DNA of 29,115 bases from a virus. Taxonomy: Duplodnaviria; Heunggongvirae; Uroviricota; Caudoviricetes. The DNA is taken from IMG/VR virus record IMGVR_UViG_2547132281_000011; one strand, written 5' to 3'. This document shows, piece by piece, positions 1 through 28,107 of the stretch (position 1 is the first letter of the stretch; each line of letters starts with the position of its first letter). The notes below the pieces were generated by a model. The model was not told where the DNA came from. It saw only the letters and a list, made by a program, of their open reading frames with translations, and made no database searches. Position numbers and translations under genes: made by a program.

Positions 1-573
1 TTACAACTTAGCTTGAGTTTGGAGTTCCTCTACAGGGTGATAACGATAAATCGTCGATATACCGATATCGTAAATAATTGCCAACTGTTTCCTGCTATAG
101 CCATTTTTGATCAGCCTTGCTATTTGTTCATGTTGCTCTTTTGTCAGTTTCGGACGGCGTCCGCCAATACGCCCCTGTGCACGTGCTGCCTCAAGTCCGG
201 CCAGTGTTCGTTCAACTATTAATTCGCGCTCCATTTCCGCTAAAGCCCCCATGACGTGAAAAAAGAAACGTCCCATGGGTGTTGACGTATCAATGCTGTC
301 TGTAAGACTACGGAAATTAACCCCTTTTCCCCGCAGTTCCTCAATAAGAGTGATAAGGTGTTTCATGCTTCTGCCCAGCCTATCCAGCTTCCAGACAACG
401 AGCGTATCTCCTTCTGATAACGTTCTGAGCAGCTTTTTCAATCCCGGTCGGGCTGACTTTGTTCCGCTGATTTTATCCTCAAAAATCAGTTCACATCCTG
501 CGCAGTTCAGTGCGTTTCGTTGTAAATCTGTATTCTGGTCATTTGTTGACACACGAATGTAGCCAATTTGCAT
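1..573 (-). CDS. gin: Serine-recombinase DNA invertase (Gin/Hin/Pin/Cin family), 190 aa
   Basis: N-terminal small serine recombinase motif GYIRVSTNDQ and C-terminal HTH in the translation; AGAGGA RBS before ATG at 573; sits beside an invertible tail-fibre segment as gin does in Mu. Confidence 0.9.
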   Translation of the reverse strand: MQIGYIRVSTNDQNTDLQRNALNCAGCELIFEDKISGTKSARPGLKKLLRTLSEGDTLVVWKLDRLGRSMKHLITLIEELRGKGVNFRSLTDSIDTSTPMGRFFFHVMGALAEMERELIVERTLAGLEAARAQGRIGGRRPKLTKEQHEQIARLIKNGYSRKQLAIIYDIGISTIYRYHPVEELQTQAKL

Positions 574-625
574 GAAAAATATCCTCTTTGTTTTGTTAAA
601 AATACATAGCTGGTATAGGTGGGAG

Positions 626-653
626 TTAAGACGAAAACGTTGGTTTGGGAGAA
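626..653. repeat. Invertase crossover site (gix/hix-like), gin-proximal copy
   Basis: TTAAGACGAAAACG-TT-GGTTTGGGAGAA; inner half-site plus flanking bases is an exact inverted copy of TTCTCCCAAACCAA at 2445-2458; lies between gin start and the segment, overlapping the likely gin promoter. Confidence 0.75.
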
Positions 654-1001
654 GCGGCGAAAAGGGATGTGGGTACAGGAGAAAATCAGATACCGGATAT
701 GTCAGCCTGGAAAAGAAATCCGAGTTCTAATCGCTGGAGAAAATTGCCTGATGGAACCATCATTCAAATGGGAATATCAGCATCAGGGCCATTAGGCTCA
801 CCTGTAAATATCACCCTGCCGATATCTTTCAGCAATACCAATTATTGTGTTGTTGCATCGTACGATAATGCACGGTCAGGTGTGTCAACAATGGTTAGTT
901 TTGCAGCATTACCTGTTTCACCATCGCAATTTTCCCTGATGTCATCTGTGACTGAGCAAGGAATAAATCCTTTTGCTTACTGGATTGCTTTTGGAGATTG
1001 A
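642..1001 (+). CDS. Alternative tail-fibre variable C-terminal domain (S'v-like); no independent start, expressed only after inversion fuses it to the constant N-terminus
   Basis: Frame reads GLGEAAKRD... directly from the crossover core (ORF track start is a TTG at 645); same GLGE junction as residues FVKNLGLGEGS of the fibre gene at 2445-2470. Confidence 0.65.
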   Translation, partial: GLGEAAKRDVGTGENQIPDMSAWKRNPSSNRWRKLPDGTIIQMGISASGPLGSPVNITLPISFSNTNYCVVASYDNARSGVSTMVSFAALPVSPSQFSLMSSVTEQGINPFAYWIAFGD

Positions 1002-1004
1002 TAA

Positions 1005-1424
1005 ATGGACAGATACTTCTATTCACAAAAAGAAAATGGTTTTTTTACCGATTTAAATAAAGCACCTTCAGATGCTGTTGAGATAACCACGGATGAATGG
1101 CTATCACTACTGGATGGACAGGATAATGGCATGAAAATAGTCAGCAATCAGGAGGGATATCCGGTTTTGACAGAGCAACCACCTTTATCAAAAGAAAACC
1201 TTATTGCATTGGCAGAGTTGAAAAAAGGAAAACTTATTAATGAAGCCAACGAGCACATGAACAGCAGGCAATGGCCTGGTAAAGCGGCTATTGGTCGTCT
1301 GAAAGGTGAGGAACTGGCGCAATATAATTTGTGGCTGGATTATCTGGACGCACTGGAACTGGTTGATTCCTCCAGTGCGCCAGATATTGAATGGCCTACG
1401 CCTCCGGCAGTTCAGGCCAGATGA
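1005..1424 (+). CDS. Tail fibre assembly protein, alternative copy (U'-like)
   Basis: 139 aa; C-terminus LWLDYLDALELVDSSSAPDIEWPTPP parallels the C-terminus of the opposite-strand assembly protein (LNAVLDYIDAVTATDTSTAPDVIWPELP); ATG 1005 follows S'v stop. Confidence 0.7.
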   Translation: MDRYFYSQKENGFFTDLNKAPSDAVEITTDEWLSLLDGQDNGMKIVSNQEGYPVLTEQPPLSKENLIALAELKKGKLINEANEHMNSRQWPGKAAIGRLKGEELAQYNLWLDYLDALELVDSSSAPDIEWPTPPAVQAR

Positions 1425-1998
1425 CATCCGGCGCGGTGCTGGTATCTGTTGCCGTCACCGCGTCAATGTAATCCAGCACAGCGTTAAGTCGGGTGGTTTC
1501 TGCCTGCGTCAGCTTCCGTCCGGCCTGTAGTTTCAGTTGAATCAGACTAATGGAAGCCATTGCTGCATCAATAAGTGACTGGCGCAGTGCTTCTGCCGCG
1601 TCTACTGCGGCATTATGCTGTGCCTCAGTATCTGTCACCCATTTCTCACCATCCCATTTATCGTATGGCGTTAACGGGGCGATAGTGGTTGTATTATCAG
1701 GGTAATCACCCGGAGCTGTGATTTCTTTTGATTCTCCTGTTTCGGTGCTAAAGACGATTTCACCGCGATGGTCTGGCACATATTCCCATGAGTTAAAATC
1801 TGCAGATCGGCAGATTGCATAACCAGTTTTGTATGAGCCAGGAGCATCTAAACAGGAACATGCCGGAATGCCGACACCCACAGCAAGATATTCAGTTGAT
1901 GTGAAAATATATTCCCGTGTTTCACCATCATAGTTATAAACCGTAATATTTCCTGCCTGGGTGGCGATAAATTCGTTATTTAATACAGCGTAATCCAT
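1396..1998 (-). CDS. Tail fibre assembly protein (U-like), currently in expressed orientation
   Basis: 200 aa immediately downstream of the tail-fibre gene (TAATG overlap at 1998); conserved Tfa-type C-terminus; 3' end overlaps U' convergently by 29 bp. Confidence 0.75.
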   Translation of the reverse strand: MDYAVLNNEFIATQAGNITVYNYDGETREYIFTSTEYLAVGVGIPACSCLDAPGSYKTGYAICRSADFNSWEYVPDHRGEIVFSTETGESKEITAPGDYPDNTTTIAPLTPYDKWDGEKWVTDTEAQHNAAVDAAEALRQSLIDAAMASISLIQLKLQAGRKLTQAETTRLNAVLDYIDAVTATDTSTAPDVIWPELPEA

Positions 1999-2945
1999 TA
2001 TGCAGCCCTCACGATATAATTAAAGGCAATGTTTCGAGGACGGTTTTCGTTTGCAGTTGGAACAACTCTGGAAGCATCAAATGTTACTCGCTTTGCATAA
2101 CCACCTTTAATTGAATCAGATGAAGCATCTCCGATGACGCTGGTTGTAAAAACGCCAGAATCAGAAGGATAGGTATTAAACCTGACATCTACTAATGCAC
2201 CAATTATATTTCGAATGGCATCGCCCTGTGATGCAAGCAAGCTACGGTTAGTATCAATTCCTCTTCCGTCATCCCAGCCACGAATAAACTCACCACGTAA
2301 ATCAGGTAATTTATTTGTCGGGTAAGCCTTTGCCAGTTCCGGGTATTCTTCAGCAGAAAAAGCCGCACCATTGCATTTCAGCCAGCCTGTTGGCGGAGTG
2401 GCTGAAGGCCACGGAACAGGGACACCAACAGGTAATGCAGAGCCTTCTCCCAAACCAAGGTTTTTGACAAACAGCGCAGGATCAGGAATATCTGCGCCGT
2501 TCTGGTCTTTAGCCAGCTTTTCCGCCAGCTTGTTCAGTACCGTAGTCGCAAAGTTTGGATCATTACCGAGAGCGTCAGCCAGCTCTTTAAGCGTATCCAG
2601 TGTCTCAGGGGCGCTGCCTGCAAGCGCCGCAAGTGCTTTGGCCACAAACTCCGTCGTCGCCAGCTTTTTGCTGTTATCGCCATTTGCAGGTGTAGGTGCT
2701 GTTGGTGTGCCGGTGAATGCCGGACTGGCTTTCGGTGCATACTGGGCATGCGGGTCTGCTGCCGCGATGTGTTTCGCAAGGTCAGCCCCGCCTTTTTCAA
2801 CCTGTTGCTTCAGGTACAGCGTGCGGCTGGCCAGTTGTTTACCCTGACGGTTAGAAATTCCGTCAGGCCCGCCCAGAACGGGGTCAGAGACCTCAATCTG
2901 GTAGATGCCGTCTTCCCACTGTGGGGTTTCAGGTAGATTTGCCAT
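1998..2945 (-). CDS. Tail fibre protein (S-like): constant N-terminal part (2945 to ~2458) plus currently joined variable C-terminal part (~2457 to 1998)
   Basis: 315 aa, Ala/Gly/Pro-rich fibre-like N-terminus; crossover site lies inside the gene at codons FVKNLGLGE; followed by assembly-protein gene. Confidence 0.8.
   Translation of the reverse strand: MANLPETPQWEDGIYQIEVSDPVLGGPDGISNRQGKQLASRTLYLKQQVEKGGADLAKHIAAADPHAQYAPKASPAFTGTPTAPTPANGDNSKKLATTEFVAKALAALAGSAPETLDTLKELADALGNDPNFATTVLNKLAEKLAKDQNGADIPDPALFVKNLGLGEGSALPVGVPVPWPSATPPTGWLKCNGAAFSAEEYPELAKAYPTNKLPDLRGEFIRGWDDGRGIDTNRSLLASQGDAIRNIIGALVDVRFNTYPSDSGVFTTSVIGDASSDSIKGGYAKRVTFDASRVVPTANENRPRNIAFNYIVRAA
2445..2470. repeat. Invertase crossover site (gix/hix-like) inside the tail-fibre gene at the constant/variable junction
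   Basis: TTCTCCCAAACC-AA-GGTTTTTGACAA: two 12-bp imperfect inverted half-sites around a 2-bp core, the organisation of hix/gix sites; 14-nt inverted match to 640-653. Confidence 0.8.
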
Positions 2946-2947
2946 AA

Positions 2948-3526
2948 TTAACTGCTCCCGTGGTTGTAACTACCGTCATAACGGGTAGTACTGTTGTATC
3001 GAATGGCGACAGACTGATATTCCAGGCTTGCCAGATGGCAGCGAGCCGGAGCAAAGGCAGCGAGCGTCTGACGTAACAGCGCTGCCTGATCATTAGTGAT
3101 GGGCTGTTGAAGGATGACCCGATAGACTGCCCAGGCTTGTGCATCGCCATGGACGAAAAGTCCGTTGTAACTGTGTTTACCGTCGTAGCCGATCTGCCCC
3201 GTACCTTCTATCAGCTCTACTTCGCCAAAGCCAAAACGGCGGATAATTTCCCGGATTGACCACGGCGTTCCTTTATAGCGGTGTAGCTCGATAGCGGATT
3301 TGATAAGCATGCGGCGTACATCGTCCGATTCCGCCAGTTCCCAGCCATCGCCGAACAACGAGAACTGCTCGCCCAGCCATGGCAGCGCGGAACTGTCGAC
3401 GATATCGACGAGACAGACCATCAGTACGCTCAGGTCGATGTTATCCAGCCGTTCGGCCAGTCTTCCCAGCGTTTTGAGACTGATATCACCCTCAAGCGGT
3501 GGCGGTAGTCGTAGCGCCTCAGCCAT
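2948..3526 (-). CDS. Tail/baseplate protein of the P2 gpI / Mu gp48 family
   Basis: 192 aa; motif SALPWLGEQFSLFGDGWELAE...HRYKGTPWSIREIIRRFGFGEV resembles the conserved LPWLAW...HR.KGT core of phage tail protein I; directly upstream of the fibre gene. Confidence 0.65.
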   Translation of the reverse strand: MAEALRLPPPLEGDISLKTLGRLAERLDNIDLSVLMVCLVDIVDSSALPWLGEQFSLFGDGWELAESDDVRRMLIKSAIELHRYKGTPWSIREIIRRFGFGEVELIEGTGQIGYDGKHSYNGLFVHGDAQAWAVYRVILQQPITNDQAALLRQTLAAFAPARCHLASLEYQSVAIRYNSTTRYDGSYNHGSS

Positions 3527-3543
3527 CGGACACCCCTGTCACG

Positions 3544-3720
3544 TTAAGAGTGATTGCCGTACAGTTTGCCCATTCGTTTTAAGGCATTCTGGCGTTCCTG
3601 CAGACGGCGGGAGGTATCACCAAGGGAATCAAGGGCGCGTCGGGTGCCACTGACGGCTGAGCGGAAGCTGCTCCCGACAATGCCGCCAATAATGACGCCG
3701 ACTGAAAATTCACTGGCCAC
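3544..3720 (-). pseudogene. Possible 5' remnant of the tape-measure gene (58 codons from GTG 3720) left by an internal deletion
   Basis: Frame after the chaperone genes reads VASEFSVGVIIGGIVGSSFRSAVSGTRRALDSLGDTSRRLQERQNALKRMGKLYGNHS, compositionally like a tape-measure N-terminus; GAGGA upstream of GTG; stops 18 bp before the gpI-like gene. Confidence 0.3.
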
Positions 3721-3812
3721 GGTGGCTATCCTCTGAAAGCAAAAAAACGGAAGGGAAGTGTCTGAACCCCATGCAGAACAGCCGCGACTGGCGGCTGTTA
3801 AGTGATACGTTG

Positions 3813-4070
3813 TTACTGATTGTCGCCGAACTCGCTTTTGATTTGCTCTTCAGCCTGCTCCAGCCACATCTCCAGATCGTCAGTATCGAGGGCATCAATC
3901 TCCCCCGGCTGAAACCTGAACCATCTCGCCAGCAGGCCCTGCGCCTGCATCAGTGTTTTTGTCGCTCTTGCCCAGCCCAGTGATTTTCTGAAATCGTTTC
4001 TGCAGCTCCATATAGTCGGCAAGATCCATGTTATCGAGGTCTTCCGGGAGGATACCGGTGCTACGGGCAA
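3813..4070 (-). CDS. Overlapping alternate-frame ORF of the tail assembly chaperone (E'/GT-type extension reached by frameshift)
   Basis: Overlaps the last 176 nt of the chaperone gene and extends 82 nt past its stop; lies in the +1 (equivalently -2) frame relative to it. Confidence 0.5.
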   Translation of the reverse strand: MPVAPVSSRKTSITWILPTIWSCRNDFRKSLGWARATKTLMQAQGLLARWFRFQPGEIDALDTDDLEMWLEQAEEQIKSEFGDNQ

Positions 4071-4236
4071 TCAGTGGTTCGTCCCAGTCTGCCGGGTCTT
4101 TGTTGATTTTGCGCACCTGCTTCAGGTCTTTTACTGTCAGGCGTTTCAGTTCAATCTGTTCAATTCTGGTACCTGCAGCAGTGGTGAAAGGATAAGACAG
4201 CGTAAAAGTATCGGACTGGGTCTGTGACATGATCAT
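3895..4236 (-). CDS. Tail assembly chaperone (P2 gpE / lambda G-like)
   Basis: 113 aa, acidic C-terminal half, positioned after sheath and tube with an overlapping alternate-frame ORF. Confidence 0.6.
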   Translation of the reverse strand: MIMSQTQSDTFTLSYPFTTAAGTRIEQIELKRLTVKDLKQVRKINKDPADWDEPLIARSTGILPEDLDNMDLADYMELQKRFQKITGLGKSDKNTDAGAGPAGEMVQVSAGGD

Positions 4237-4291
4237 ACTCCTTTGTAAATTCAGAGCAGTATGTCTGGCGGTGGACGTGACGGATATTAAA

Positions 4292-4320
4292 GGAGATTAA
4301 GAAGAAGGGGCCGGAGCCCC
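4292..4320 (-). terminator. Putative intrinsic terminator after the sheath-tube transcription unit
   Basis: GC hairpin GGGGC-tccg-GCCCC (minus-strand sense, plus-strand 4307-4320) followed on the minus strand by TTCTTCTTAATCTCC. Confidence 0.4.
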
Positions 4321-4327
4321 TGTGATG

Positions 4328-4609
4328 TCAGCAAGTGCGAAAACCCTTGCAGTTACGCAGGAAAGCGATGAGAAGCGCCTTTCCCTCAGATTTGCCGATG
4401 CCGGAGAACCAGTGGTCGGGCGGCTCCCATGCTTCAATCAAATCGGCCAGTTTGCGGGCCTTTGAACGTGTGCAGTCAATCGGGTCATTGGTTTTACGGG
4501 TATTAAAAAGGGTTTCCACCCCCGGAATATCAAGGAGGGTAAACCACGTACCATTTGACATGCCCAGTGACGCACATCGCCCTCCTTTGTCAGTCAGTTC
4601 AACACTCAC
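4328..4609 (-). CDS. Hypothetical protein downstream of the tube gene
   Basis: 93-aa ORF starting 3 nt after tube stop; no recognisable motif. Confidence 0.4.
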   Translation of the reverse strand: MSVELTDKGGRCASLGMSNGTWFTLLDIPGVETLFNTRKTNDPIDCTRSKARKLADLIEAWEPPDHWFSGIGKSEGKALLIAFLRNCKGFRTC

Positions 4610-19583: not shown

Positions 19584-20570
19584 CTATTTCAAAATATAAC
19601 GATATTTACTATCTGGAGTGTTTTGTTGGTCAAGTAATAGAGCTCTACATGGGGCGGTCAAAACACGGGCATAACGACCATCGGGGTTTATGTTGATGTA
19701 ACAAGTTTTCCCTTTAACACCATAAGATTCAGGTATTATTGCCTGTGTAGACACCGTGAATTTAAGGGTATGCCAGCCCGATTTTTGCTTGTAGCTTGAA
19801 ACCGAATGGAAATCATCTGAGTACTTATTTAACCCTGGAAACATGCTGCGTAATGCTGGGATGGAATCTTCTATTATTTTGTCGTTGGTTTTAATGTTAA
19901 AAACGCTGGTTTCAGTAGATGCTACTGCTTTAGCATTTCCCCATTTACCAGCGAACACAATCATTCCCACGAAAAATATTGCGACAAGAACTAACGCTCC
20001 CCCCAACACTACTACATGAGGCTTCCGGCTTCTGGTTGGTACAGTCGCGACTGATTTTGCCCCGCTGTCCGATGGAGGTGATAGAGTTTTACTCTCATCA
20101 CGAATATTCAGCAGATCATCAAAATAACCAAACACAGCCTGCAACTGCTCTTTGTCCAGGCCTTTAAGATGGGTTGTACCGAAATGCTTCAGACAGTATC
20201 TGTCACGGTCAAGACGATACCTAGGGTCAGTAAGCACCATTATTTTGCTGACCAGAAGATTACAGTCCTTCATATTCTGGATCTGTTGTGCATATCTCTG
20301 GAGGATCTCAACCGCACCATGATAATCAGCCGCAGTCATTTCATTAACTGTTTTGGTATTAAGTTTCGTGTGGATCGTCATCCATAGTTCGCGCTTACTT
20401 TCCCCCAGATCAACCAATTCATCCATCAATCTGTGTAAATCGCGTTTTTGCAGCAACGAAATTGGTTGCTGGGCAGAGGGAAGTATGTCAGCAGAATAGT
20501 TATGAATGGTAACATCACCGCTGACAACGTTACCCACATCTCCGTTAACTGTTTGCTTCTCTTTACTCAT
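19584..20570 (-). CDS. Single-pass membrane protein (cytoplasmic ~190-aa N-domain, one TM, ~115-aa C-domain), translationally coupled to repressor gene
   Basis: TM segment VVVLGGALVLVAIFFVGMIVFAG; start ATG overlaps repressor stop (ATGA at 20567-20570); N-terminus NGDVGNVVSGDVTIH echoes the repressor C-terminus. Confidence 0.65.
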   Translation of the reverse strand: MSKEKQTVNGDVGNVVSGDVTIHNYSADILPSAQQPISLLQKRDLHRLMDELVDLGESKRELWMTIHTKLNTKTVNEMTAADYHGAVEILQRYAQQIQNMKDCNLLVSKIMVLTDPRYRLDRDRYCLKHFGTTHLKGLDKEQLQAVFGYFDDLLNIRDESKTLSPPSDSGAKSVATVPTRSRKPHVVVLGGALVLVAIFFVGMIVFAGKWGNAKAVASTETSVFNIKTNDKIIEDSIPALRSMFPGLNKYSDDFHSVSSYKQKSGWHTLKFTVSTQAIIPESYGVKGKTCYININPDGRYARVLTAPCRALLLDQQNTPDSKYRYILK

Positions 20571-21028
20571 TTTCTCTTTGTATTTTTGTTCATTATTCCA
20601 CCTGTTCCTATGGTTACGTTACCTTTGATAACATTCCCCAGAACATCTCCATGAATAACCTGTTCCGCCCGTTCTCTGGAGGAGCCAGTCGTCAATGCCG
20701 ACAAAACTGAACCTTTGACTTGTAACGGTGCTTGCCGGTAGTGCTGAAGTAACTCCATTTCATCACGTGATAAAGTTATACCTGATGATTCCCCAGTAAG
20801 AATGAACTGTACGTTGGCCCCAATTCTTGCAAAGGCTGCAAGTAACTCACCTCCGGGAACTGCAACCCCTCGTTCATATTTCCCCCACATTTCTCTTGAA
20901 ACGCCACAAAGGGCTGCTACTTCAGCCTGCTTGAGTGATAACCGCGAACGCTCAGCTTTGAACCGCGACGCGCAAAGAGAATCAAAATTCACATAAACCT
21001 CATTGACAATGAGAACAATAGTTCTCAT
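20567..21028 (-). CDS. Prophage repressor, XRE/Cro-CI-type HTH (functional analogue of Mu c)
   Basis: HTH motif LSLKQAEVAALCGVSREMWGKYERG; divergent from the early operon; start codon lies within the early-promoter operator region, leader apparently very short. Confidence 0.75.
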   Translation of the reverse strand: MRTIVLIVNEVYVNFDSLCASRFKAERSRLSLKQAEVAALCGVSREMWGKYERGVAVPGGELLAAFARIGANVQFILTGESSGITLSRDEMELLQHYRQAPLQVKGSVLSALTTGSSRERAEQVIHGDVLGNVIKGNVTIGTGGIMNKNTKRK

Positions 21029-21031
21029 AAT
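21004..21031 (+). promoter_or_regulatory. Early promoter (Pe-like), sigma70-type
   Basis: TTGACA (21004-21009), 16-nt spacer, CATAAT (21026-21031), about 45 nt upstream of the ner-like ATG. Confidence 0.55.
21010..21027. promoter_or_regulatory. Operator: perfect 18-bp palindrome TGAGAACAATAGTTCTCA
   Basis: Exact 7-4-7 dyad filling the spacer of the early promoter and abutting the repressor start codon. Confidence 0.55.
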
Positions 21032-21078
21032 CTATCACATATAAAACAAACATCATTGCATCAACAAAGGAGACAACA

Positions 21079-21267
21079 ATGACTTCCGAACAAGTTAAAA
21101 CTCTCTTCCGTCAGCGTGGTATCACGTTTACCCGCTGGGCCGAAGAACACGGCTACAGCCGCAATGAGGTCTATCGTGTTCTCAATGGACAGACCAAAGC
21201 TCGTTACGGCAAAGCCCATGAAATTGCCGTAAAGCTGGGATTAAAACCCACGTCAAATGCGGCATAA
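21079..21267 (+). CDS. Small Ner/Cro-like DNA-binding protein, first gene of early operon
   Basis: 62 aa, AAGGAG RBS, HTH-like FTRWAEEHGYSRNEVYRVLNG; position as Mu ner. Confidence 0.55.
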   Translation: MTSEQVKTLFRQRGITFTRWAEEHGYSRNEVYRVLNGQTKARYGKAHEIAVKLGLKPTSNAA

Positions 21268-21319
21268 ATTTTCCATATATGCAACAGGTTATCACATATT
21301 GCAAAAATGGAAATGTGAC

Positions 21320-21628
21320 ATGAGTAAAGTAAATATCTCCAGTTCCGGGACCCGCATCCTACGTGTACTCAAAGCTCTACGCGGTCACTCTCTGAACGGT
21401 GTTTCTAACGGTGAACTGGCATCAGCCCTAGATGAGTCCCCGGCGAACATCAATCGAGCACTCAATACCCTTATCGAAGAGGGACTAGCCCTGAAACTGG
21501 AAAACGGGCGTTTCGCACCAGGCATCCAGTTGCTGCAGATCGCCATGGCCCACAGTAACGAGATGGCACGTGCACAGGATCGCATTAACGAAATCAACCA
21601 ACGTGTTATTTCAGGTAGTCGTTTGTAA
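21320..21628 (+). CDS. Winged-helix-like DNA-binding protein
   Basis: 102 aa from ATG 21320; TRILRVLKALRGHSLNGVSNGELASALDESPANINRALNTLIEEGL resembles wHTH regulators; start uncertain. Confidence 0.45.
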   Translation: MSKVNISSSGTRILRVLKALRGHSLNGVSNGELASALDESPANINRALNTLIEEGLALKLENGRFAPGIQLLQIAMAHSNEMARAQDRINEINQRVISGSRL

Positions 21629-21638
21629 GGAGTAATCA

Positions 21639-22550
21639 ATGGGACGCACCAAATCACCGGTTAGCACTGAACTGAACGTCGAGGTACCGCTGTCGGATGA
21701 TCTCAATGTCAGTCTAAACGCCATGACACAGCATCGCATGGAAATCATGCAACAGTTCGGCGATGGTCTGCCCTATGAGCGCGATCGTGTTGTCCATGAG
21801 GCACGCTTTTATATGGCACAGAGCGCTGAGGCCATGCTGGAGGCAGGTAAGCGGCTGATAATCCTTAAGGAAAATGAACCACACGGGGAGTTTATAAAGA
21901 TTCTTGAAAGTGAGTTGGGGCTGGCATACCGGACATCTGTGAGAATGATGCAAGCATCGACAAAATACTTATCCCCGGCGCTGAAACCAAATGTGCCAAC
22001 GTTGGCACATTTGGGAAAAGCCAAACTTTTCGAATTAATGACAGAAGACGACGAAGAGCTTGCCGAACTGGCCGACGGCGGCACAGTTGCCGGCATGACG
22101 CTTGACGATGTTGATCGCATGTCAGTACGTGAATTGCGTCAGGCCCTGCGTGAAGCGCGCGAAACCAACGCAGCACAACAGCGTGTTCTCGCCGATAAAA
22201 ATGAAAAAATAGACTCACTCTCCACCAGACTGGAGAAGAAATCCCGTATTCAGCCACCTGAGCCTGATGAAGAGGTGAAGAAACTGCGGGCGGAAGTGAC
22301 CGCGTTAGCGGTTGAGGCGGAATCTGCCATCGCCGTTCGACTGTCCAGCGCTTTTGAGACACTGTGCGCATATTGTGCTGAAAACATGATTGATACCCCC
22401 AGAGACTTCATGGCAGGCCTGGTCTGTCAACTGGAAAGCACAGCGCGTAGCCTGCGCTCCACATTTGACCTGCCGGACGAGCCAACAGGCGATGTCGCGC
22501 CTTCATGGCTGACTGAGCCGACGCCACAGATTAACGGGCTGGAGGCATAA
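21639..22550 (+). CDS. Hypothetical early protein, 303 aa (possibly DUF3102-like), with coiled-coil C-terminal half
   Basis: Strong AAGGAG RBS; charged helical region (RELRQALREARETNAAQQRVLADKNEKIDSL); not present at this position in Mu itself. Confidence 0.55.
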   Translation: MGRTKSPVSTELNVEVPLSDDLNVSLNAMTQHRMEIMQQFGDGLPYERDRVVHEARFYMAQSAEAMLEAGKRLIILKENEPHGEFIKILESELGLAYRTSVRMMQASTKYLSPALKPNVPTLAHLGKAKLFELMTEDDEELAELADGGTVAGMTLDDVDRMSVRELRQALREARETNAAQQRVLADKNEKIDSLSTRLEKKSRIQPPEPDEEVKKLRAEVTALAVEAESAIAVRLSSAFETLCAYCAENMIDTPRDFMAGLVCQLESTARSLRSTFDLPDEPTGDVAPSWLTEPTPQINGLEA

Positions 22551-22553
22551 CCA

Positions 22554-24323
22554 ATGAATGCTGCCCTGACTGAACGACTGGTTTATGTCGCCCGCGCGGC
22601 ACGTGACGCGGGGCATGGTAAACGCGGTGCAATATACGACGCGGCCTGTGCTGAACTTGGCATGTCCCGCGCCACTCTGCTGCGCAGGCTGAAGGAGGTA
22701 TCTGTGACTGATAAACGCAAAAAACGCGCCGATGCCGGGCGCAGCGCCCTGACCCGCGACGAAGCCGCGCTGATATCTGCCACACTGCGTGAGGCCACCC
22801 GCAAGAACGGTAAGCGTCTCTATTCCATCGCAGATGCAGTGGAAACCCTGCGGGCTAACGGCTTTATCTCCGCAGGCAGAACAGATGAAACCACCGGTGA
22901 GTTTTTCCCGTTGTCCGAAGATGCCATCAGTCGTGCCTTGCGTAACTATGGCCTGCACCCGGAACAACTGGATGCCCCTGCGCCGCATACCGAAGTGGCC
23001 AGTCTGCATCCCAATCACGTCTGGCAGATTGATGCCTCGCTCTGCACGCTTTACTACCTGAGCAATGGACACAAAGGGCTGCAGGTGATGGACAGCGCGA
23101 AGTTCTACAAGAACAAACCCGCTAACCTTGCCCGTATCGCCAGTGACCGCGTGTGGAGTTACGAGATTACCGACCATGCCAGCGGCTGGATTTACGTTGA
23201 GTATGTGACGGGTGCGGAATCCGGTGAGAACCTGTGTTCTGTGCTTATCAACGCCATGCAGGAGCGTGGCGGCGCAGACGTGCTGCACGGCGTGCCGAAA
23301 ATACTCTATCTCGACCCCGGCTCGGCAAACACCGCGGGTATGACGAAAAACATGTGCCGCTCACTGGGCATCGACCTGATAGCGCACAAGCCGCATAACG
23401 CCCGCGCCACCGGACAGGTGGAAAAGGCGCGTGACATTATCGAACGCAAGCTGGAGCCGGGTCTGAAGTTCCGGCCGGTTCACAGTCTGGAAGAACTCAA
23501 CGCGCTGGCCGCGAAATGGCGCAGCCACTTTAACGCCACGGCTGTTCACAGCCGCCACGGTAAAACCCGCACGGATATCTGGCTGAAGATTACTGCTGAG
23601 CAGCTGAAAAAAGCGCCTTCCGTTGAGGTATGTCGTGAACTGGCTGTGGCGGCACCAGAACTCCGCAAAGTCACGCCAAAACTTCGTGTCTCGTTCCGGG
23701 GCACTGAATTTGACGTATCAACGGTACCGGGCGTACTGGTTGGTGAAAAACTGATGATTACCCGTAACCCATGGCGCAGCGATGTGGCACAGGTGGTTCT
23801 GACCGGTGAGGACGGCCACGAGACGTTCTTCCTGGTCGAAGAGGTCAGAAAGAACGAGTTTGGCTTTGCTGAAGGCGCGGCGGTATTTGGCGAAAGTTAC
23901 AAAGCCCTGCCGGAAACCCCGGCACAGATGGCGGCAAAAGAAACCGAAGCGCTGGTTACCGGTACAGACAACGCCGCAGATGCAGCCGCCGCACGCAAGG
24001 CGAAGGCGCTGCCGTTCGGCGGGCGGCTTGACCCGTATAAACATATCGACGACACCACACTTCCGGCCTATATGCCGAAGCGTGGTCAGGCCTCTGACGT
24101 ACGCGGGCCGCGCACTGAACAACGTCCCATGACTCATGTGGAGGCCGCGAAAGCCCTGCGCGATAAGTTCAGCGCCGACGGCCTTACCTGGACGCCGGAA
24201 CATTACCGCCAGTTAACGGCACAGTACCCGGACGGCGTACCGGAAGCCGCACTGGATGAAGTCATGGCCACGCTGACCACACCGGCCCGCAGCAGTGTTA
24301 TCAGCATTGTTAACGGCAACTGA
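22554..24323 (+). CDS. DDE transposase, Mu-type (MuA-like)
   Basis: 589 aa; rve-type core with candidate DDE residues (HVWQIDAS ... LYLDPGSANT ... downstream Glu); GGAGG RBS; followed by overlapping AAA+ ATPase gene. Confidence 0.85.
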   Translation: MNAALTERLVYVARAARDAGHGKRGAIYDAACAELGMSRATLLRRLKEVSVTDKRKKRADAGRSALTRDEAALISATLREATRKNGKRLYSIADAVETLRANGFISAGRTDETTGEFFPLSEDAISRALRNYGLHPEQLDAPAPHTEVASLHPNHVWQIDASLCTLYYLSNGHKGLQVMDSAKFYKNKPANLARIASDRVWSYEITDHASGWIYVEYVTGAESGENLCSVLINAMQERGGADVLHGVPKILYLDPGSANTAGMTKNMCRSLGIDLIAHKPHNARATGQVEKARDIIERKLEPGLKFRPVHSLEELNALAAKWRSHFNATAVHSRHGKTRTDIWLKITAEQLKKAPSVEVCRELAVAAPELRKVTPKLRVSFRGTEFDVSTVPGVLVGEKLMITRNPWRSDVAQVVLTGEDGHETFFLVEEVRKNEFGFAEGAAVFGESYKALPETPAQMAAKETEALVTGTDNAADAAAARKAKALPFGGRLDPYKHIDDTTLPAYMPKRGQASDVRGPRTEQRPMTHVEAAKALRDKFSADGLTWTPEHYRQLTAQYPDGVPEAALDEVMATLTTPARSSVISIVNGN

Positions 24324-24333
24324 GGAGGGAAAC

Positions 24334-25500
24334 ATGCTGGTACTGAAGCAGCAACTGAAAGAGGCCCGTATTCCACAGGCGGTGGTGGCGAGAGCTGTCG
24401 ATGTTTCTGAGGCCACGCTGGCCCAGATTGTGAATCATAACGCGTGGCCCCGCACCAGCCCCGGAGAAGTGCGCCGGCGTCTTGCGTCCTGGCTGGAAAG
24501 TCAGGGGATTGATACAACGAAGAGTTTTGATGCTGTACAGGGCGCGGCCACGCCCCGTACAGCGGGTACCACAGATAAAACGAGCCTCAGTGAGGAAGAG
24601 AATATGTTACTCAAAAAACAGGTGTTATTTCCAGCAACCAAAAAAGCGTTTGGTCTTTTCCGTGACCCGTTCGCCGACGAAGCCATGCAGGGTTCTGATG
24701 ATGTGTTCACCACCCCGGACATTCGCTACGTGCGTGAGGCGCTGTACCAGACAGCCCGTCATGGTGGGTTTATGGCCGTCATCGGTGAGTCCGGTGCGGG
24801 TAAATCCACGCTGCGCCGCGACCTGACTGAACGTATCAACCGCGAGAATGCGCCGGTAATTGTTATCGAGCCATACATCATCGCTATGGAAGACAACGAT
24901 GTGAAAGGGAAAACCCTGAAGGCAGCAGCTATTGCCGAAGCCATTATCAGTACCATCGCACCACTGGAAAGCATCAGACGCAGTCAGGACGCCCGTTTTC
25001 GCCAGTTGCATCGCGTCCTGAAAGACAGCAGCCAGGCGGGGTTCAGCCACGTTCTGGTGATTGAGGAGGCCCACAGTCTGCCCATTCCGACACTGAAACA
25101 CCTCAAACGCTTTTTTGAGCTGGAGTCCGGTTTCAAAAAACTGCTGTCCATCGTGCTGATTGGCCAGCCGGAACTGGCGACAAAACTGTCTGAACGCAAT
25201 ATGGAAGTCCGTGAAGTCGTTCAGCGCTGTGAGGTGGTCGAACTTCTGCCTCTGGACAATAACCTTGAAGAATTTCTGACGTTCAAACTGCAACGGGCCG
25301 GTAAACAGCTGACGGACATTATGGACGCCGGTGCAGTGGATGCCATACGTGCCCGCCTGAGCAATCCGGGAAGTCACCGTAAAAATATGGTCAGCCTGCT
25401 GTATCCGCTGGCCGTCAGTAACCTGGTAATAGCCGCCATGAATCTGGCCGCTGAAATCGGGGTTCCACAGGTCAACGCTGACGTTGTCAAAGGGGTTTAA
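24334..25500 (+). CDS. Transposition AAA+ ATPase (MuB/TniB-like)
   Basis: Walker A GESGAGKST; start ATG 24334 behind GAGGAGGG, just after transposase stop (ORF-track start 24295 is an upstream extension). Confidence 0.85.
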   Translation: MLVLKQQLKEARIPQAVVARAVDVSEATLAQIVNHNAWPRTSPGEVRRRLASWLESQGIDTTKSFDAVQGAATPRTAGTTDKTSLSEEENMLLKKQVLFPATKKAFGLFRDPFADEAMQGSDDVFTTPDIRYVREALYQTARHGGFMAVIGESGAGKSTLRRDLTERINRENAPVIVIEPYIIAMEDNDVKGKTLKAAAIAEAIISTIAPLESIRRSQDARFRQLHRVLKDSSQAGFSHVLVIEEAHSLPIPTLKHLKRFFELESGFKKLLSIVLIGQPELATKLSERNMEVREVVQRCEVVELLPLDNNLEEFLTFKLQRAGKQLTDIMDAGAVDAIRARLSNPGSHRKNMVSLLYPLAVSNLVIAAMNLAAEIGVPQVNADVVKGV

Positions 25501-25502
25501 TA

Positions 25503-25766
25503 ATGAAATCCACCACAGGTATCAACCAGCAAATCAGCAAAGTGCAGTCAGCCATTATGGCGCTTAAGGCGACGAACACGGATGTACAAAGCATCACCAT
25601 CAGGGGTAACAAACCTGTCATCCGCGTTTCCCGGAGTGCGCATTGCATGCGCATGCTTGAGCAGGGAAAGGCCTGTTATACCGGACATGACCACAGGGGA
25701 TATTTCCGTCAGGGCGTTTTCGAACTGCACGGCTGTCGCGTCGTGTGGCCGGAATCTTTGTGGTAA
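25503..25766 (+). CDS. Hypothetical early protein (Kil position)
   Basis: 87 aa directly after the ATPase gene; function not recognisable. Confidence 0.45.
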   Translation: MKSTTGINQQISKVQSAIMALKATNTDVQSITIRGNKPVIRVSRSAHCMRMLEQGKACYTGHDHRGYFRQGVFELHGCRVVWPESLW

Positions 25767-25793
25767 TCAGCACAACTGGAGAAATCATAAGAT

Positions 25794-26324
25794 ATGGCAA
25801 AAAGTACAAAAGGGGCAAAACGTATCAAGTCCGCAGCGGCACTCTGGGTACCGGGGACACGCGAAGAGGTCATTGAGGGAATCAGACTGCTCGGTGACGC
25901 ACAACGTGAACTGGTCAGGGCTGAAACAGAAATGAATGACGCCATTGGCGATATCACCGCACGTTATGCCCCGCTCACCGAGAGCCTAAAAAAACGCATG
26001 GCCGAACTGCAGTCCGGTATTCAGACATGGTGTGAGGCACACCGTGATGAACTGACCGGCAACGGGAAGGTGAAGTTCGCTAACCTCACCACCGGCGAGG
26101 TGCAGTGGCGAAACCGTCCGCCATCAGTCAGTATCCGTGGAGCGGATAATGTTATTGAACTACTGAGACGTCTGGGGCTTGAGCGCTTTATTCGTGTAAA
26201 AGAGGAAATAAATAAAGATTCCATTCTGAATGAAAAAGAGGCCGTGAAAAATATTCCCGGTATTACCATAAAAAGTGATATTGAGGATTTTTCAATAATT
26301 CCTTTTGAGCAGGATGTGCAGTAA
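25794..26324 (+). CDS. gam: Gam-like DNA-end binding / host nuclease inhibitor protein
   Basis: 176 aa; MAKSTKGAKRIKSAAALWVP... and ...VQWRNRPPSVSIRG...IEDFSIIPFEQ closely resemble Mu Gam as recalled. Confidence 0.85.
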   Translation: MAKSTKGAKRIKSAAALWVPGTREEVIEGIRLLGDAQRELVRAETEMNDAIGDITARYAPLTESLKKRMAELQSGIQTWCEAHRDELTGNGKVKFANLTTGEVQWRNRPPSVSIRGADNVIELLRRLGLERFIRVKEEINKDSILNEKEAVKNIPGITIKSDIEDFSIIPFEQDVQ

Positions 26325-26421
26325 ACACACCACGTTAATTATTTAATAAAAACATTTTCTTTTTTATTCCGGCGTCAGCGCCGTGGGCTTCTGCACGCCG
26401 GAAACAGAGGAGAATTAAATT

Positions 26422-26616
26422 ATGATATTTAAATGTATTCAGTGCGAGAGGGATATAACAGCCCTGCGTTTTCACAGCGCCATCGCCGTGATGTCCGGTA
26501 AGTACCACGTACCTGCAGTACGTGTCACCCTGGTCTGTCCGTACTGCAGCCAGCATTTTTCGGCGGACGTGCCCGTCATGGAATTCTTCCGCCCTGACAG
26601 GGAGGACGCGCAATGA
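26422..26616 (+). CDS. Small zinc-ribbon protein
   Basis: 64 aa with CxxC ... CPYC pairs; GAGGAG RBS. Confidence 0.45.
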   Translation: MIFKCIQCERDITALRFHSAIAVMSGKYHVPAVRVTLVCPYCSQHFSADVPVMEFFRPDREDAQ

Positions 26617-26885
26617 TTACCCCACAGGACGCAGAAAAACGGACCCGCGAAATTGTCGCGGAATATATCCGTGAATGTGGTTGTAAAACCCCCAACCATA
26701 TCCGGCTGGTATTAACCAAATTAATCAGCATGGCCGCGCAGGCTATTGTGGCGACCAACGGAAAGGAGGCTGCCCTGCAGGTACTGGTGAACACACTCAC
26801 CCACACGGCAGAGCATGAGGTGCCGTACCGGATGGAAACTACTGCAGAAGGCGGCCTGCACATCACCGTCGACCGGAAGCACTGA
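26613..26885 (+). CDS. Hypothetical early protein
   Basis: 90 aa, ATGA-coupled to the upstream gene. Confidence 0.45.
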   Translation: MITPQDAEKRTREIVAEYIRECGCKTPNHIRLVLTKLISMAAQAIVATNGKEAALQVLVNTLTHTAEHEVPYRMETTAEGGLHITVDRKH

Positions 26886-26894
26886 GGGCGCGAC

Positions 26895-27200
26895 ATGACA
26901 CGAAACACCGAACTCACCCGCACCGCCCTCTACCGTCTGGCTCTGCAGCGTTTCGGGCCGGATGCACAGGCCCTGAAACTGACAGAAGAGGCCGCCGAAC
27001 TGGCGGCCAGTGCCGCCCGCAACCTGAACGGACAGGGCAGCGAAAGTGACCTCGCGGCAGAGCTGGCAGACGTGGAAATCATGACAGAGCAGTTGCGCCT
27101 TCAGGGGATGGACCGGCTGATTGACTTCCACAAACAGAAAAAACTGGAACGCCTTGCCGCACGGCTGGGCGTCATGTACACCGGAGATACTGAACAATGA
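26895..27200 (+). CDS. MazG-like nucleotide pyrophosphohydrolase-fold protein
   Basis: 101 aa with paired acidic helices LTEEAAELAASAARNL and LAAELADVEIMTEQL typical of the MazG/all-alpha NTP-PPase fold. Confidence 0.5.
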   Translation: MTRNTELTRTALYRLALQRFGPDAQALKLTEEAAELAASAARNLNGQGSESDLAAELADVEIMTEQLRLQGMDRLIDFHKQKKLERLAARLGVMYTGDTEQ

Positions 27201-27880: not shown

Positions 27881-28107
27881 TTACGCTATCAGGTAACAGC
27901 CGGAAATTAAAAGCCTGCCGAATATCTGCCAGATACCTTTTTGCCCGCGCCTTTTTTAAGAACGTCAGGCCGGGGATCACAATTGGTGTTATTGCCGGAC
28001 GCGAACAGGTTGAAAAATACATGTCAGGTGCATGGTGGAATAACGACCCTGTCATTGCTGCCCGTAATATTCATATCAGTTGGGGGGATATTCAGAATGA
28101 CTGCTGA
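27877..28107 (+). CDS. Hypothetical early protein
   Basis: 76 aa, ATGA-coupled. Confidence 0.4.
   Translation: MITLSGNSRKLKACRISARYLFARAFFKNVRPGITIGVIAGREQVEKYMSGAWWNNDPVIAARNIHISWGDIQNDC

What the first reader, a model, noticed from the sequence alone, without database searches (positions are those of the whole stretch)
626..2470. Invertible tail-fibre (host-range) switch with crossover sites mapped to the nucleotide
Two 26-bp sites in inverted orientation (cores TT at 640-641 and AA at 2457-2458) share a 14-nt exact inverted match. One lies inside the fibre gene at codons FVKNL-GLGE; the other reads GLGEAAKRD into a start-less ORF on the opposite strand, so inversion would fuse the constant fibre N-terminus in frame to a different C-terminal domain. 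Each variable domain has its own assembly-protein gene, and the two converge with a 29-bp 3' overlap. The invertase gene sits next to the outer site. The segment is about 1.8 kb, shorter than Mu G (about 3 kb), and the two variable domains differ in length (about 153 vs 119 aa).
Basis: partly seen in the sequence, partly recalled or inferred. Interest (0 to 1): 0.5.

Follow-up and report, generated by a model that had tools for sequence, protein, structure and literature searches.

The report
Invertible phage tail-fibre switch (e14-type)
This is a real but textbook phage "host-range switch": a 1.8-kb DNA segment that a neighbouring invertase flips to give the tail fibre one of two alternative tips, and a second E. 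coli isolate carries the identical prophage with the segment flipped exactly as predicted.

Summary
Two 26-bp sites (628-653 and 2445-2470) lie in inverted orientation. They match at 21 of 26 positions, 14 of them consecutive, with 0 such matches expected by chance and no third site in the window. They bracket a 1.8-kb cassette with two alternative fibre C-termini, each with its own assembly-protein gene. A 190-aa serine invertase gene sits next to the outer site. An in-silico flip at the predicted cores fuses the constant N-terminus in frame to the second C-terminus (315 aa becomes 282 aa). That exact flipped sequence exists in E. coli WS3294A at 100% identity over 3,491 nt in one piece. WS3294A carries the same prophage, 100% identical over 24.9 kb, at a different chromosomal site.

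The system is not new. The invertase is 82% identical to e14 PinE and 74% to Mu Gin. The inner half-sites are identical to those of the e14 P segment. The segment length and the 29-bp overlap of the assembly genes equal those of e14, so "shorter than Mu G" is not a distinguishing trait. What differs is the carrier, a transposable Mu-type prophage of ETEC strain ATCC 43896. This is a new member of a well-known kind, of low interest. Receptors and host ranges remain untested.

The parts
1..573 (-). Serine DNA invertase gene (190 aa), Pin/Gin/Cin family
   Evidence: Pfam Resolvase (4e-51) plus HTH_7 (1e-13). It is 82% identical to e14 PinE and 74% to Mu Gin. Ser9 and 109 other columns are invariant across the window protein, PinE, Gin and Cin. 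RefSeq protein WP_001165549.1, annotated 'recombinase family protein'.
484..555 (-). Putative Fis-dependent recombinational enhancer (nt 19-90 of the invertase coding sequence)
   Evidence: It aligns without gaps to the 'enhancer of Cin-mediated C-segment inversion' annotated in the P1 record at nt 19-90 of cin. Identity here is 81% to cin, 86% to pinE and 79% to gin, against 69-73% for nt 91-390. Third-codon-position identity is 54-63% against 37-50%. This is inferred by homology; Fis binding was not tested.
628..653 (-). Outer (invertase-proximal) 26-bp crossover site, core TT at 640-641
   Evidence: TTCTCCCAAACCAACGTTTTCGTCTT on the minus strand. Its inner half-site plus core is identical to that of the e14 sites. 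It is the left breakpoint of the natural inversion in WS3294A.
642..1001 (+). Silent alternative fibre C-terminus (Sv'), start-less, 119 aa counted from the crossover
   Evidence: Pfam Gp53-like_C, 1e-13. The frame is closed by TAA at 627-629. It becomes the C-terminus of a 282-aa fibre after inversion, and WS3294A has that fibre annotated as an 849-nt CDS. It has no solved-structure relative by sequence.
1005..1424 (+). Tail-fibre assembly protein gene for Sv' (U', 139 aa)
   Evidence: Pfam Caudo_TAP, 2e-25. 54% identical to e14 TfaP.
1396..1998 (-). Tail-fibre assembly protein gene for the expressed end (U, 200 aa)
   Evidence: Pfam Caudo_TAP, 4e-32. 89% identical to e14 TfaE; annotated tfaE. 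It overlaps U' by 29 bp (1396-1424). The same overlap is seen in e14, EPEC E2348/69, strain 503025 and CFS3292.
1998..2458 (-). Expressed variable fibre C-terminus (Sv), collar type, 152 aa counted from the crossover
   Evidence: Pfam Collar domain, 3e-15. 59% identical to e14 StfE. It matches the solved short tail fibre 9cuy (1e-27) and the T4 gp37 tip 2xgf (3e-15).
2445..2470 (+). Inner 26-bp crossover site inside the fibre gene, core AA at 2457-2458 (codon Leu163)
   Evidence: TTCTCCCAAACCAAGGTTTTTGACAA. It encodes F-V-K-N-L-G-L-G-E. It is the right breakpoint of the natural inversion.
2459..2945 (-). Constant N-terminal part of the tail fibre (Sc, residues 1-163)
   Evidence: Identical in ATCC 43896 and WS3294A. 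Residues 137-167 match Mu fibre S residues 144-174 in solved structures 8ju3 and 5yvq, the conserved motif at the crossover.

Best explanation
This is a Gin/Pin-type site-specific inversion switch for a phage tail fibre. Its cassette is of the e14 P-segment type, and it sits at one end of a transposable Mu-type prophage.

Proposed mechanism. The 190-aa serine invertase binds as dimers to the two 26-bp sites. With host Fis bound to an enhancer inside the 5' part of the invertase gene, it forms an invertasome on supercoiled DNA. It then cuts both sites with a 2-nt stagger at the central dinucleotide (640-641 and 2457-2458), rotates one half of the tetramer by 180 degrees, and religates.

Consequence. 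The ~1.82-kb segment flips. The constant fibre part (residues 1-163, transcribed with the other late tail genes) is then joined in frame to one of two ends. In the orientation seen here it is the collar-type end with its chaperone U, giving a 315-aa fibre. In the flipped orientation it is the gp53-like end with its chaperone U', giving a 282-aa fibre. The non-joined end has no start codon or promoter and stays silent. A lysogen population therefore releases two kinds of virions that should bind different receptors.

What is shown: the anatomy, the in-frame fusion, the family relationships, and that the inversion has occurred in nature at these sites.

What is inferred: Fis and enhancer dependence, the exact cleavage positions, and the change of host range.
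For: - Sites and chance expectation.
- Invertase family and catalytic residues.
- Enhancer homology to the annotated P1 cin enhancer, with excess third-position conservation.
- In-frame fusion.
- Chaperone genes for each end.
- Natural inversion. The synthetic flipped sequence, joined at the predicted cores, matches WS3294A at 100% over 3,491 nt in a single piece. Flanks 1-654 and 2444-3580 are direct and the interior is reversed. The rest of the prophage is 100% identical over 24.9 kb. It is inserted at gsk/ybaL rather than beside rcsC. The fused 282-aa fibre is annotated there.
- Both junction types occur on this constant part: 28 and 6 genomes.
- The crossover points annotated in P1 and Mu fall at the centre of the aligned 26-mers.
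- Cassettes with the same repeat sequence flip in culture. The e14 P segment was 51 +/- 6% forward and the EPEC E2348/69 Mu-prophage locus 60 +/- 8% forward (PMC4272514 Table S1). PinE and PinQ invert the 1,797-bp e14 P segment between repeats TTGGTTTGGGAGAAGG (PMC12529663).
Against: - No read-level data for this strain were available, so ongoing switching in ATCC 43896 itself is not shown.
- Three assemblies of strain 8178, which carries the identical invertase protein, all have one orientation. That is a small sample and a different cassette.
- No sigma-70 promoter for the invertase was found between the gene and the segment at the scan's threshold.
- The genome copy in ATCC 43896 carries an ISCro1 insertion among the baseplate genes. 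The window as given lacks 10.2 kb of tail genes. In this host the phage may therefore be defective and the switch without a working virion.
- Receptors for the two ends are unknown.
Confidence: 0.9

Rival explanations
1. The cassette is a frozen relic. It once inverted, which explains the two orientations in two isolates. In this strain it no longer switches, for example because the invertase is not expressed or the imperfect outer site is poorly used.
For: - The outer halves of the two sites differ at 5 of 12 positions.
- No promoter was detected upstream of the invertase.
- Three assemblies of a related lysogen share one orientation.
- The prophage copy in ATCC 43896 is hit by ISCro1.
Against: - The invertase ORF is intact, with every residue that is invariant in Gin, Cin and PinE.
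- Site asymmetry of the same kind is present in the functional e14 sites.
- ATCC 43896 and WS3294A differ by nothing but the inversion over more than 28 kb, so the flip is very recent.
- The EPEC locus with the e14-type sites flips at about 60:40 although its own invertase is only a 31-aa remnant.
Confidence: 0.06
2. The switch is kept for the host rather than for a phage. In a defective prophage the flipping fibre end might act as a surface or adsorption-blocking factor, as reported for e14 StfE2 against phage T2. Alternatively it might retarget a tailocin-like particle.
For: - Inversion of the homologous e14 P segment produces a chimeric protein that blocks T2 adsorption (PMC12529663).
- The ATCC 43896 copy is disrupted by an IS element.
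- The expressed end is 59% identical to StfE and its chaperone 89% identical to TfaE.
Against: - In e14 the protective protein starts from an ATG outside the segment on the invertase side. Here that frame is closed by TAA at 627-629, so no invertase-side chimera can be made.
- The same prophage is intact in WS3294A and is present at 80% coverage or more in 601 genomes, which fits an active phage.
- It sits at different chromosomal sites in different strains, as expected for a transposing phage.
Confidence: 0.08
3. The orientation difference between the two genomes is not invertase-mediated. It would instead be an assembly artefact or a RecA-dependent exchange between the short inverted repeats.
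For: Only finished assemblies were compared, not reads.
Against: - A 14-nt identical stretch is too short for efficient RecA recombination (established knowledge).
- The breakpoints coincide with canonical 26-bp invertase sites next to an intact invertase.
- An assembler choosing one of two orientations would itself imply a mixed population.
- The same junction alternatives recur in 28 and 6 independent genomes.
Confidence: 0.02

Closest known systems
e14 P-segment / PinE inversion system of E. coli K-12 (Plasterk & van de Putte 1985; Mehta et al. 2004; Kirigo et al. 2025, PMC12529663)
   Same: - The invertase is 82% identical.
- The inner half-site plus core, TTCTCCCAAACCAA, is identical.
- The segment length matches: 1,817 bp between crossover points here against 1,827 bp in MG1655. 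The published figure is 1,797 bp between the repeats.
- The gene order is the same: fibre end, tfa, convergent tfa, fibre end, invertase. The 29-bp overlap of the tfa genes is also the same.
- TfaE is 89% identical. The collar-type end is 59% identical to StfE, with nearly identical N- and C-terminal stretches.
   Different: - The carrier is a transposable Mu-type prophage, not the lambdoid e14 element at icd.
- The constant fibre part is unrelated to StfP.
- The second end and its chaperone are only 30% and 54% identical to the StfP end and TfaP.
- The outer half-sites differ.
- The silent end has no upstream start codon, so no StfE2-like invertase-side chimera can form.
Phage Mu G segment / Gin
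   Same: - Same mechanism class and layout: Sc | Sv-U / U'-Sv' | invertase at the phage end, with the invertase transcribed away from the segment.
- The invertase is 74% identical.
- The fibre motif at the crossover is conserved: AKD.NGADIP...F[VI][KQ]NLGL.E.
- Both are on a transposable phage with a DDE transposase, MuB-like ATPase, Gam, GemA and Mor.
   Different: - G is 3,058 bp.
- The gix sequence differs at 7 of 26 positions.
- The variable fibre parts and chaperones are unrelated in sequence.
- Here the early genes are transcribed divergently from the late genes, and the tail module is P2-like, with gpI, gpJ, gpW, gpV and gpD.
Phage P1 C segment / Cin and the plasmid p15B Min multiple-inversion system
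   Same: - The invertase family is the same, 74% identical to Cin.
- The enhancer lies in the 5' coding part of the invertase gene.
- The crossover lies in the centre of a 26-bp site within fibre gene S.
- A near-identical prophage in strain 8178 carries a four-site cassette reminiscent of Min.
   Different: - C is 4,256 bp.
- cin lies on the other side and is transcribed towards the segment.
- The window's cassette has only two sites.
Invertible locus in the Mu prophage of EPEC E2348/69 (Goldberg et al. 2014, PMC4272514)
   Same: - Same repeat, AAACCTTGGTTTGGGAGAA, and about 1.9 kb.
- Same cassette layout with the 29-bp tfa overlap.
- Experimentally shown to coexist in both orientations, 60 +/- 8% forward.
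   Different: - It belongs to a different prophage family, with YmfQ and GP46 baseplate genes.
- Its own invertase is reduced to a 31-aa remnant, so flipping must be driven in trans.
- Only 286 nt of the cassette (92% identity) and about 105 nt of the invertase remnant (79%) align with the window.

Membership tests
Fis/enhancer-dependent serine DNA invertase systems (Hin/Gin/Cin/Pin) | Small serine recombinase: N-terminal catalytic domain with the nucleophilic serine (Ser9/10), and a C-terminal helix-turn-helix | tested here: met
   Pfam Resolvase 4e-51 and HTH_7 1e-13. Ser9, Arg7, Asp64, Arg65 and Arg68 are invariant in the alignment with PinE, Gin and Cin. 74-82% identity to Gin and PinE.
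Fis/enhancer-dependent serine DNA invertase systems (Hin/Gin/Cin/Pin) | Two 26-bp imperfectly symmetric recombination sites in inverted orientation, with identical central dinucleotides | tested here: met
   Sites at 628-653 and 2445-2470 with cores TT/AA, 21/26 matching. 0.00 expected by chance. They align with gix, cix and the e14 sites, whose annotated crossover is at the centre.
Fis/enhancer-dependent serine DNA invertase systems (Hin/Gin/Cin/Pin) | Recombinational enhancer located in cis, in this subgroup within the 5' coding part of the invertase gene | tested here: met
   Window 555-484 aligns without gaps to the enhancer annotated at nt 19-90 of P1 cin, at 81% identity. This stretch is more conserved than the rest of the gene, including at third codon positions. 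This is a homology test only.
Fis/enhancer-dependent serine DNA invertase systems (Hin/Gin/Cin/Pin) | Dependence on host Fis and on DNA supercoiling; inversion only, not deletion | not testable with these tools
   His106 and Met114 are present and invariant in the alignment. From my own knowledge, substitutions at these positions make Gin Fis-independent, which suggests normal Fis dependence here. No experiment is possible with these tools.
Fis/enhancer-dependent serine DNA invertase systems (Hin/Gin/Cin/Pin) | The segment is actually found in both orientations | tested here: met
   WS3294A carries the exact predicted flipped form in an otherwise 100% identical prophage. Across genomes the two junctions occur in 28 and 6 genomes.
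Phage tail-fibre host-range inversion cassettes (Mu G, P1 C, e14 P type) | The crossover site lies inside the fibre ORF, so that a constant N-terminus is joined in frame to either of two C-termini | tested here: met
   Translation of both orientations gives 315 aa and 282 aa, with the junction at Leu163-GLGE. The fused CDS is annotated in WS3294A.
Phage tail-fibre host-range inversion cassettes (Mu G, P1 C, e14 P type) | Each variable end is followed by its own tail-fibre assembly (chaperone) gene, and the two sets converge | tested here: met
   Two Caudo_TAP genes, 1005-1424 (+) and 1396-1998 (-).
Phage tail-fibre host-range inversion cassettes (Mu G, P1 C, e14 P type) | The two orientations give different receptor specificity or host range | not testable with these tools
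   The two ends belong to different domain families, Collar and Gp53-like_C, and are unrelated in sequence. No receptor assignment is possible.
e14 P segment proper (pinE locus of E. coli K-12) | Site sequence, ~1.8-kb size and cassette architecture of the P segment | tested here: met
   The inner half-site plus core is identical. Crossover-to-crossover length is 1,817 against 1,827 bp. The 29-bp tfa overlap is identical.
e14 P segment proper (pinE locus of E. coli K-12) | Residence in the lambdoid e14 element at icd, with StfP as the constant part | tested here: not met
   The carrier is a transposable Mu-type prophage next to rcsC, or next to gsk in WS3294A. The constant fibre part has no similarity to StfP beyond the 12-aa site motif. 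It is therefore a homologous cassette, not the e14 locus itself.

The most novel reading that the evidence does not exclude
The 26-bp site may serve not only as the inversion point but also as the exchange point for whole cassettes between co-resident prophages. The evidence that leaves this open:
- Prophages 97.6-100% identical in the flanking DNA that was compared, two of them (ATCC 43896 and strain 8178) encoding the very same invertase protein, carry different cassettes. There is a two-site 1.8-kb cassette here, a two-site cassette with other ends in strain 503025, and a four-site cassette with four collar-type ends in strain 8178.
- Homology of the fibre ends to more than 1,500 other E. 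coli genomes stops within or at the edge of the site.

If invertases catalyse this exchange in trans, the switch would also be a site-specific engine for shuffling modules between phages. In IS-damaged copies such as the one in ATCC 43896, it might instead be retained for host benefit, as with e14 StfE2.
Probability: 0.12. Interest if true: 0.4.

Novelty: new member of a known kind. Interest (0 to 1): 0.12.

Why it matters
It matters little beyond annotation. The locus shows that RefSeq's generic labels hide a complete and evidently recently active host-range switch. Those labels are "recombinase family protein", "phage tail protein", and a 100-aa "gp53-like domain-containing protein" that is really the silent cassette end. 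The switch belongs to a transposable prophage family that matches in 648 of 5,426 complete E. coli genomes (601 of them covering at least 80% of the query). The ATCC 43896 / WS3294A pair is a clean natural demonstration of the inversion, and it could serve as a test case for tools that call invertible regions. For phage-therapy or tailocin engineering, the two ends (collar-type and gp53-like) with their matched chaperones are ready-made exchangeable receptor-binding modules. Nothing here challenges current understanding of Gin/Pin-type systems.

Tried and rejected
- I looked for a third crossover site, which would indicate a shufflon or Min-like system. A full 26-mer scan at up to 8 mismatches and a half-site scan at up to 3 mismatches found only the two sites. 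The other half-site hits lack the palindromic partner.
- I looked for within-strain orientation differences in three independent assemblies of strain 8178. All three have the same orientation.
- I looked for a sigma-70 promoter for the invertase between 574 and about 700. None was found at the scan's threshold, and the overall promoter count did not exceed the shuffled expectation.
- I tried to find the Hin/Gin enhancer sequence in open-access text. Only figure legends were available, and a review requested by PMC id was not held. I used the enhancer feature in the P1 GenBank record instead. A strict Fis-motif scan found only one conserved match, at nt 71-85. A looser G-N13-C scan gave a second, at nt 22-36, that is absent in cin. 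I therefore do not claim mapped Fis sites.
- I searched the gp53-like end against solved structures: no hit at E<=0.1.
- I scanned the whole window against Rfam: nothing reached threshold.
- I considered that the cassette might be the e14 element itself. This was rejected on context and on the constant part.
- I considered that the EPEC E2348/69 Mu prophage might be the same phage. This was rejected: only 286 nt of the cassette and about 105 nt of the invertase remnant align.
Full report
**1. The observation**

The region was read directly and its ORFs listed. The longest inverted repeat in the first 4 kb is 634-654 / 2444-2464: 21 nt, 95% complementary, with 1,789 nt between the arms.
- TTCTCCCAAACCAACGTTTTCGTCTT (628-653, minus strand)
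- TTCTCCCAAACCAAGGTTTTTGACAA (2445-2470, plus strand)

They agree at 21 of 26 positions, the first 14 consecutively. A 20-nt pattern covering both arms occurs exactly twice in the 29,115-base window, against 0.00 expected in dinucleotide-preserving shuffles. Scans for further full or half sites found no third site.

The right site lies in a 315-aa ORF (1998-2945, minus strand) at codons F159-V-K-N-L-G-L-G-E167. The left site reads GLGEAAKRD into a plus-strand ORF with no start codon, whose frame is closed by TAA at 627-629. The two downstream ORFs, 1005-1424 (+) and 1396-1998 (-), overlap by 29 bp. A 190-aa ORF (1-573, minus strand) begins 55 bp from the outer site.

Two refinements are needed. 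Counted from the crossover, the variable parts are 152 and 119 aa; beyond the shared GLGE they are 148 and 115 aa. And the single-nucleotide placement of the crossover rests on homology, as explained in section 3.

**2. What the parts are**

Pfam gives the following:

| ORF | Pfam match |
|---|---|
| 1-573 (-), 190 aa | Resolvase 4e-51 plus HTH_7 1e-13 |
| Expressed fibre C-terminus | phage tail Collar domain |
| Silent C-terminus | Gp53-like_C |
| 1005-1424 (+) and 1396-1998 (-) | Caudo_TAP (tail-fibre assembly proteins) |
| ORF upstream of the fibre | P2 gpI-type tail protein |

The invertase is 82% identical to e14 PinE and 74% to Mu Gin. In a four-way alignment with PinE, Gin and Cin, 110 columns are invariant. 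These include the nucleophile Ser9 and the FFFHVMGALAEMEREL helix.

The last constant residues of the fibre, AKDQNGADIPDPALFVKNLGLGE, match Mu S residues 144-174, AKDRNGADIPNKPLFIQNLGLQE. This appears both in a direct comparison and against the solved Mu S structures 8ju3 and 5yvq. The collar-type end resembles solved short and long fibre tips: 9cuy at 1e-27 and T4 gp37 2xgf at 3e-15. The gp53-like end has no solved relative by sequence.

**3. Does it invert?**

I built the flipped form in silico: window 1-639, then the reverse complement of 640-2458, then 2459 onward. The constant part then runs in frame into GLGEAAKRD...IAFGD, giving a 282-aa fibre followed by the second assembly gene.

Searching that synthetic sequence against 5,426 complete E. 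coli genomes gave one full-length hit. It was E. coli WS3294A, at 100% identity over all 3,491 nt in a single aligned piece. The window as it stands has one full-length hit of its own, E. coli ATCC 43896, at 100%. The rest of the prophage (window 3400-28300) is 100% identical in both strains.

Pairwise BLAST against WS3294A shows the flanks 1-654 and 2444-3580 direct at 100% and the interior reversed. The only mismatches are the three that distinguish the repeat arms. In WS3294A the prophage lies beside gsk/ybaL rather than rcsC, and the fused fibre is annotated as an 849-nt CDS. So two independent lysogens of one phage differ by this inversion and nothing else.

The comparison confines the exchange to the 14-nt identical stretch, 640-653 / 2445-2458. 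The first differing base (639 versus 2459) lies immediately outside the core and stays with its flank. That is what a staggered cut at the central dinucleotide predicts. In the annotated P1 and Mu records the crossover or segment boundary falls exactly at the centre of the homologous 26-mers.

For a population view I used 201-nt junction queries. This constant part is joined to the collar-type end in 28 genomes and to the gp53-like end in 6.

**4. Enhancer**

The P1 record annotates the "enhancer of Cin-mediated C-segment inversion" at nt 19-90 of cin. The window's invertase gene aligns to cin, gin and pinE without gaps there.

| Compared with | Identity, nt 19-90 |
|---|---|
| P1 cin | 81% |
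| e14 pinE | 86% |
| Mu gin | 79% |

For nt 91-390 of the same genes the identity is 69-73%. Third-codon-position identity is 54-63% in the enhancer stretch against 37-50% in the rest of the gene. This fits an extra DNA-level constraint, but it is only a homology argument. I could not map the two Fis sites with confidence, and Fis dependence is untestable here.

**5. Context**

The window is a transposable Mu-type prophage. It encodes a DDE transposase, an AAA+ MuB-like protein, Gam, GemA and Mor on the plus strand. Head genes and P2-like tail genes lie on the minus strand. The invertase sits at the extreme end, next to host DNA. Relatives match in 648 of 5,426 E. coli genomes, 601 of them at 80% coverage or more. 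They also include the isolated phages PhiKM and Klebsiella phage KP12, the latter with an annotated DNA invertase.

**6. Comparison with what is known**

The cassette is a close homologue of the e14 P segment of E. coli K-12.
- In MG1655 the sites are TTCTCCCAAACCAAGGTTTTCGAGAG and TTCTCCCAAACCAACGTTTATGAAAA. They share the window's inner half-site and core.
- The crossover-to-crossover distance is 1,827 bp in MG1655 and 1,817 bp here.
- tfaP and tfaE overlap by the same 29 bp.
- TfaE is 89% identical to the window's U, and StfE is 59% identical to the expressed end.
- Kirigo et al. 2025 describe the P segment as 1,797 bp between repeats TTGGTTTGGGAGAAGG / CCTTCTCCCAAACCAA, inverted by PinE and PinQ (PMC12529663).
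- Goldberg et al. 2014 measured coexisting orientations for e14 (51 +/- 6% forward). They found the same for a locus with the same repeat in the Mu prophage of EPEC E2348/69 (60 +/- 8% forward) (PMC4272514).

What differs from e14 is the following. The carrier phage is different. The constant fibre part is unrelated to StfP. The second end and its chaperone are only 30% and 54% identical to their e14 counterparts. And there is no start codon on the invertase side, so the StfE2-type chimera reported to block T2 cannot be made here.

**7. Rivals**

- *Frozen relic.* Unlikely, given an intact invertase and two genomes that differ only by the flip. Read-level data for this strain are lacking, though. 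Three assemblies of strain 8178 (same invertase protein, different cassette) share one orientation.
- *Host-benefit role.* A defence or tailocin role cannot be excluded for the ATCC 43896 copy, which carries ISCro1 among its baseplate genes. It is not needed to explain the anatomy.
- *Assembly artefact or RecA exchange.* Very unlikely for a 14-nt repeat that coincides with canonical sites.

**8. Verdict**

The finding is real and correctly interpreted. It is a textbook Gin/Pin-type tail-fibre switch with an e14-type cassette on a Mu-type transposable prophage: a new member of a known kind, of low interest (0.12). Shown here are the anatomy, the in-frame exchange, the family membership by sequence, and the natural occurrence of the predicted inversion. 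Inferred are the Fis/enhancer dependence, the exact cleavage chemistry, and the change of host range.

Noticed in passing
window 3580/3581: The window is not colinear with its source genome here. Window 3001-3580 equals NZ_CP024278.1 1186830-1186251, and window 3579-4600 equals 1176064-1175043. So 10,186 bp are absent: most of the tape-measure gene, tail protein, X, D, V, ISCro1, a hypothetical gene, W and most of J. The junction has a 2-nt overlap. All the best-matching genomes listed for window 3400-28300 align in two separate pieces spanning about 32-35 kb of the record, so they carry extra DNA at this point. Either the window was spliced when it was made, or it comes from a deletion variant that would be tail-defective.
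   Followed up: partly
L001 11814-14429 (NZ_CP024278.1 1181402-1184017), outside the window as given: In ATCC 43896 an IS66-family element (ISCro1: tnpA, tnpB and the transposase) interrupts a baseplate-region gene. That gene is 876 nt in WS3294A and only 660 nt here. The prophage copy in the source strain is probably defective, while the WS3294A copy looks intact.
   Followed up: partly
L009 1397-3945 (E. coli strain 8178, NZ_CP151934.1): A prophage 99.7% identical to the window over 24.9 kb encodes the identical invertase protein (WP_001165549.1) but carries a four-site cassette. Three sites lie in one orientation (1397-1422, 1869-1894, 2308-2333) and one in the other (3920-3945). Each heads a different collar-type fibre end, and there is only one assembly gene. 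This looks like a Min/shufflon-like multiple-inversion variant.
   Followed up: partly
L012 2972-5053 (EPEC E2348/69, NC_011601.1): The Mu-prophage invertible locus that Goldberg et al. measured at 60:40 has sites identical to those of e14. Its own invertase is only a 31-aa N-terminal remnant next to eutC. Its flipping must therefore be driven in trans by an invertase encoded elsewhere in the genome.
   Followed up: partly
window 2445-2470, and the 201-nt junction queries: Sequence similarity of either fibre end to hundreds or thousands of other E. coli genomes stops at query positions 92-102, that is, within or at the outer edge of the 26-bp site. For the collar-type end there were 1,579 matching genomes, and for the gp53-like end 287. 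The site is therefore also a mosaic module boundary between unrelated fibres: e14, HK97-like and P2-like.
   Followed up: no
window 699-1001 (+): RefSeq annotates a free-standing 100-aa 'gp53-like domain-containing protein' starting at an internal ATG. In strain 503025 the same feature is marked as a pseudogene missing its N-terminus. It is really the silent cassette end. This is an annotation artefact typical of invertible fibre loci.
   Followed up: yes
window 1396-1424: The 29-bp convergent overlap of the two assembly-protein genes recurs exactly in e14, EPEC E2348/69, strain 503025 and CFS3292, even where the genes themselves differ. The inverted repeat 1334-1351 / 1460-1477 appears to reflect the conserved LDY[LI]DA motif near both C-termini.
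   Followed up: no
window 20567-29115: The early genes run on the plus strand, away from the late genes: a Ner-like HTH protein, DUF3102, DDE transposase, MuB-like ATPase, Gam, GemA and Mor. A repressor-like HTH gene at 20567-21028 lies on the minus strand. This divergent layout differs from Mu itself and, from memory, resembles BcepMu-type phages. The window begins exactly at the invertase stop codon and ends at the stop codon of the Mor gene.
   Followed up: no
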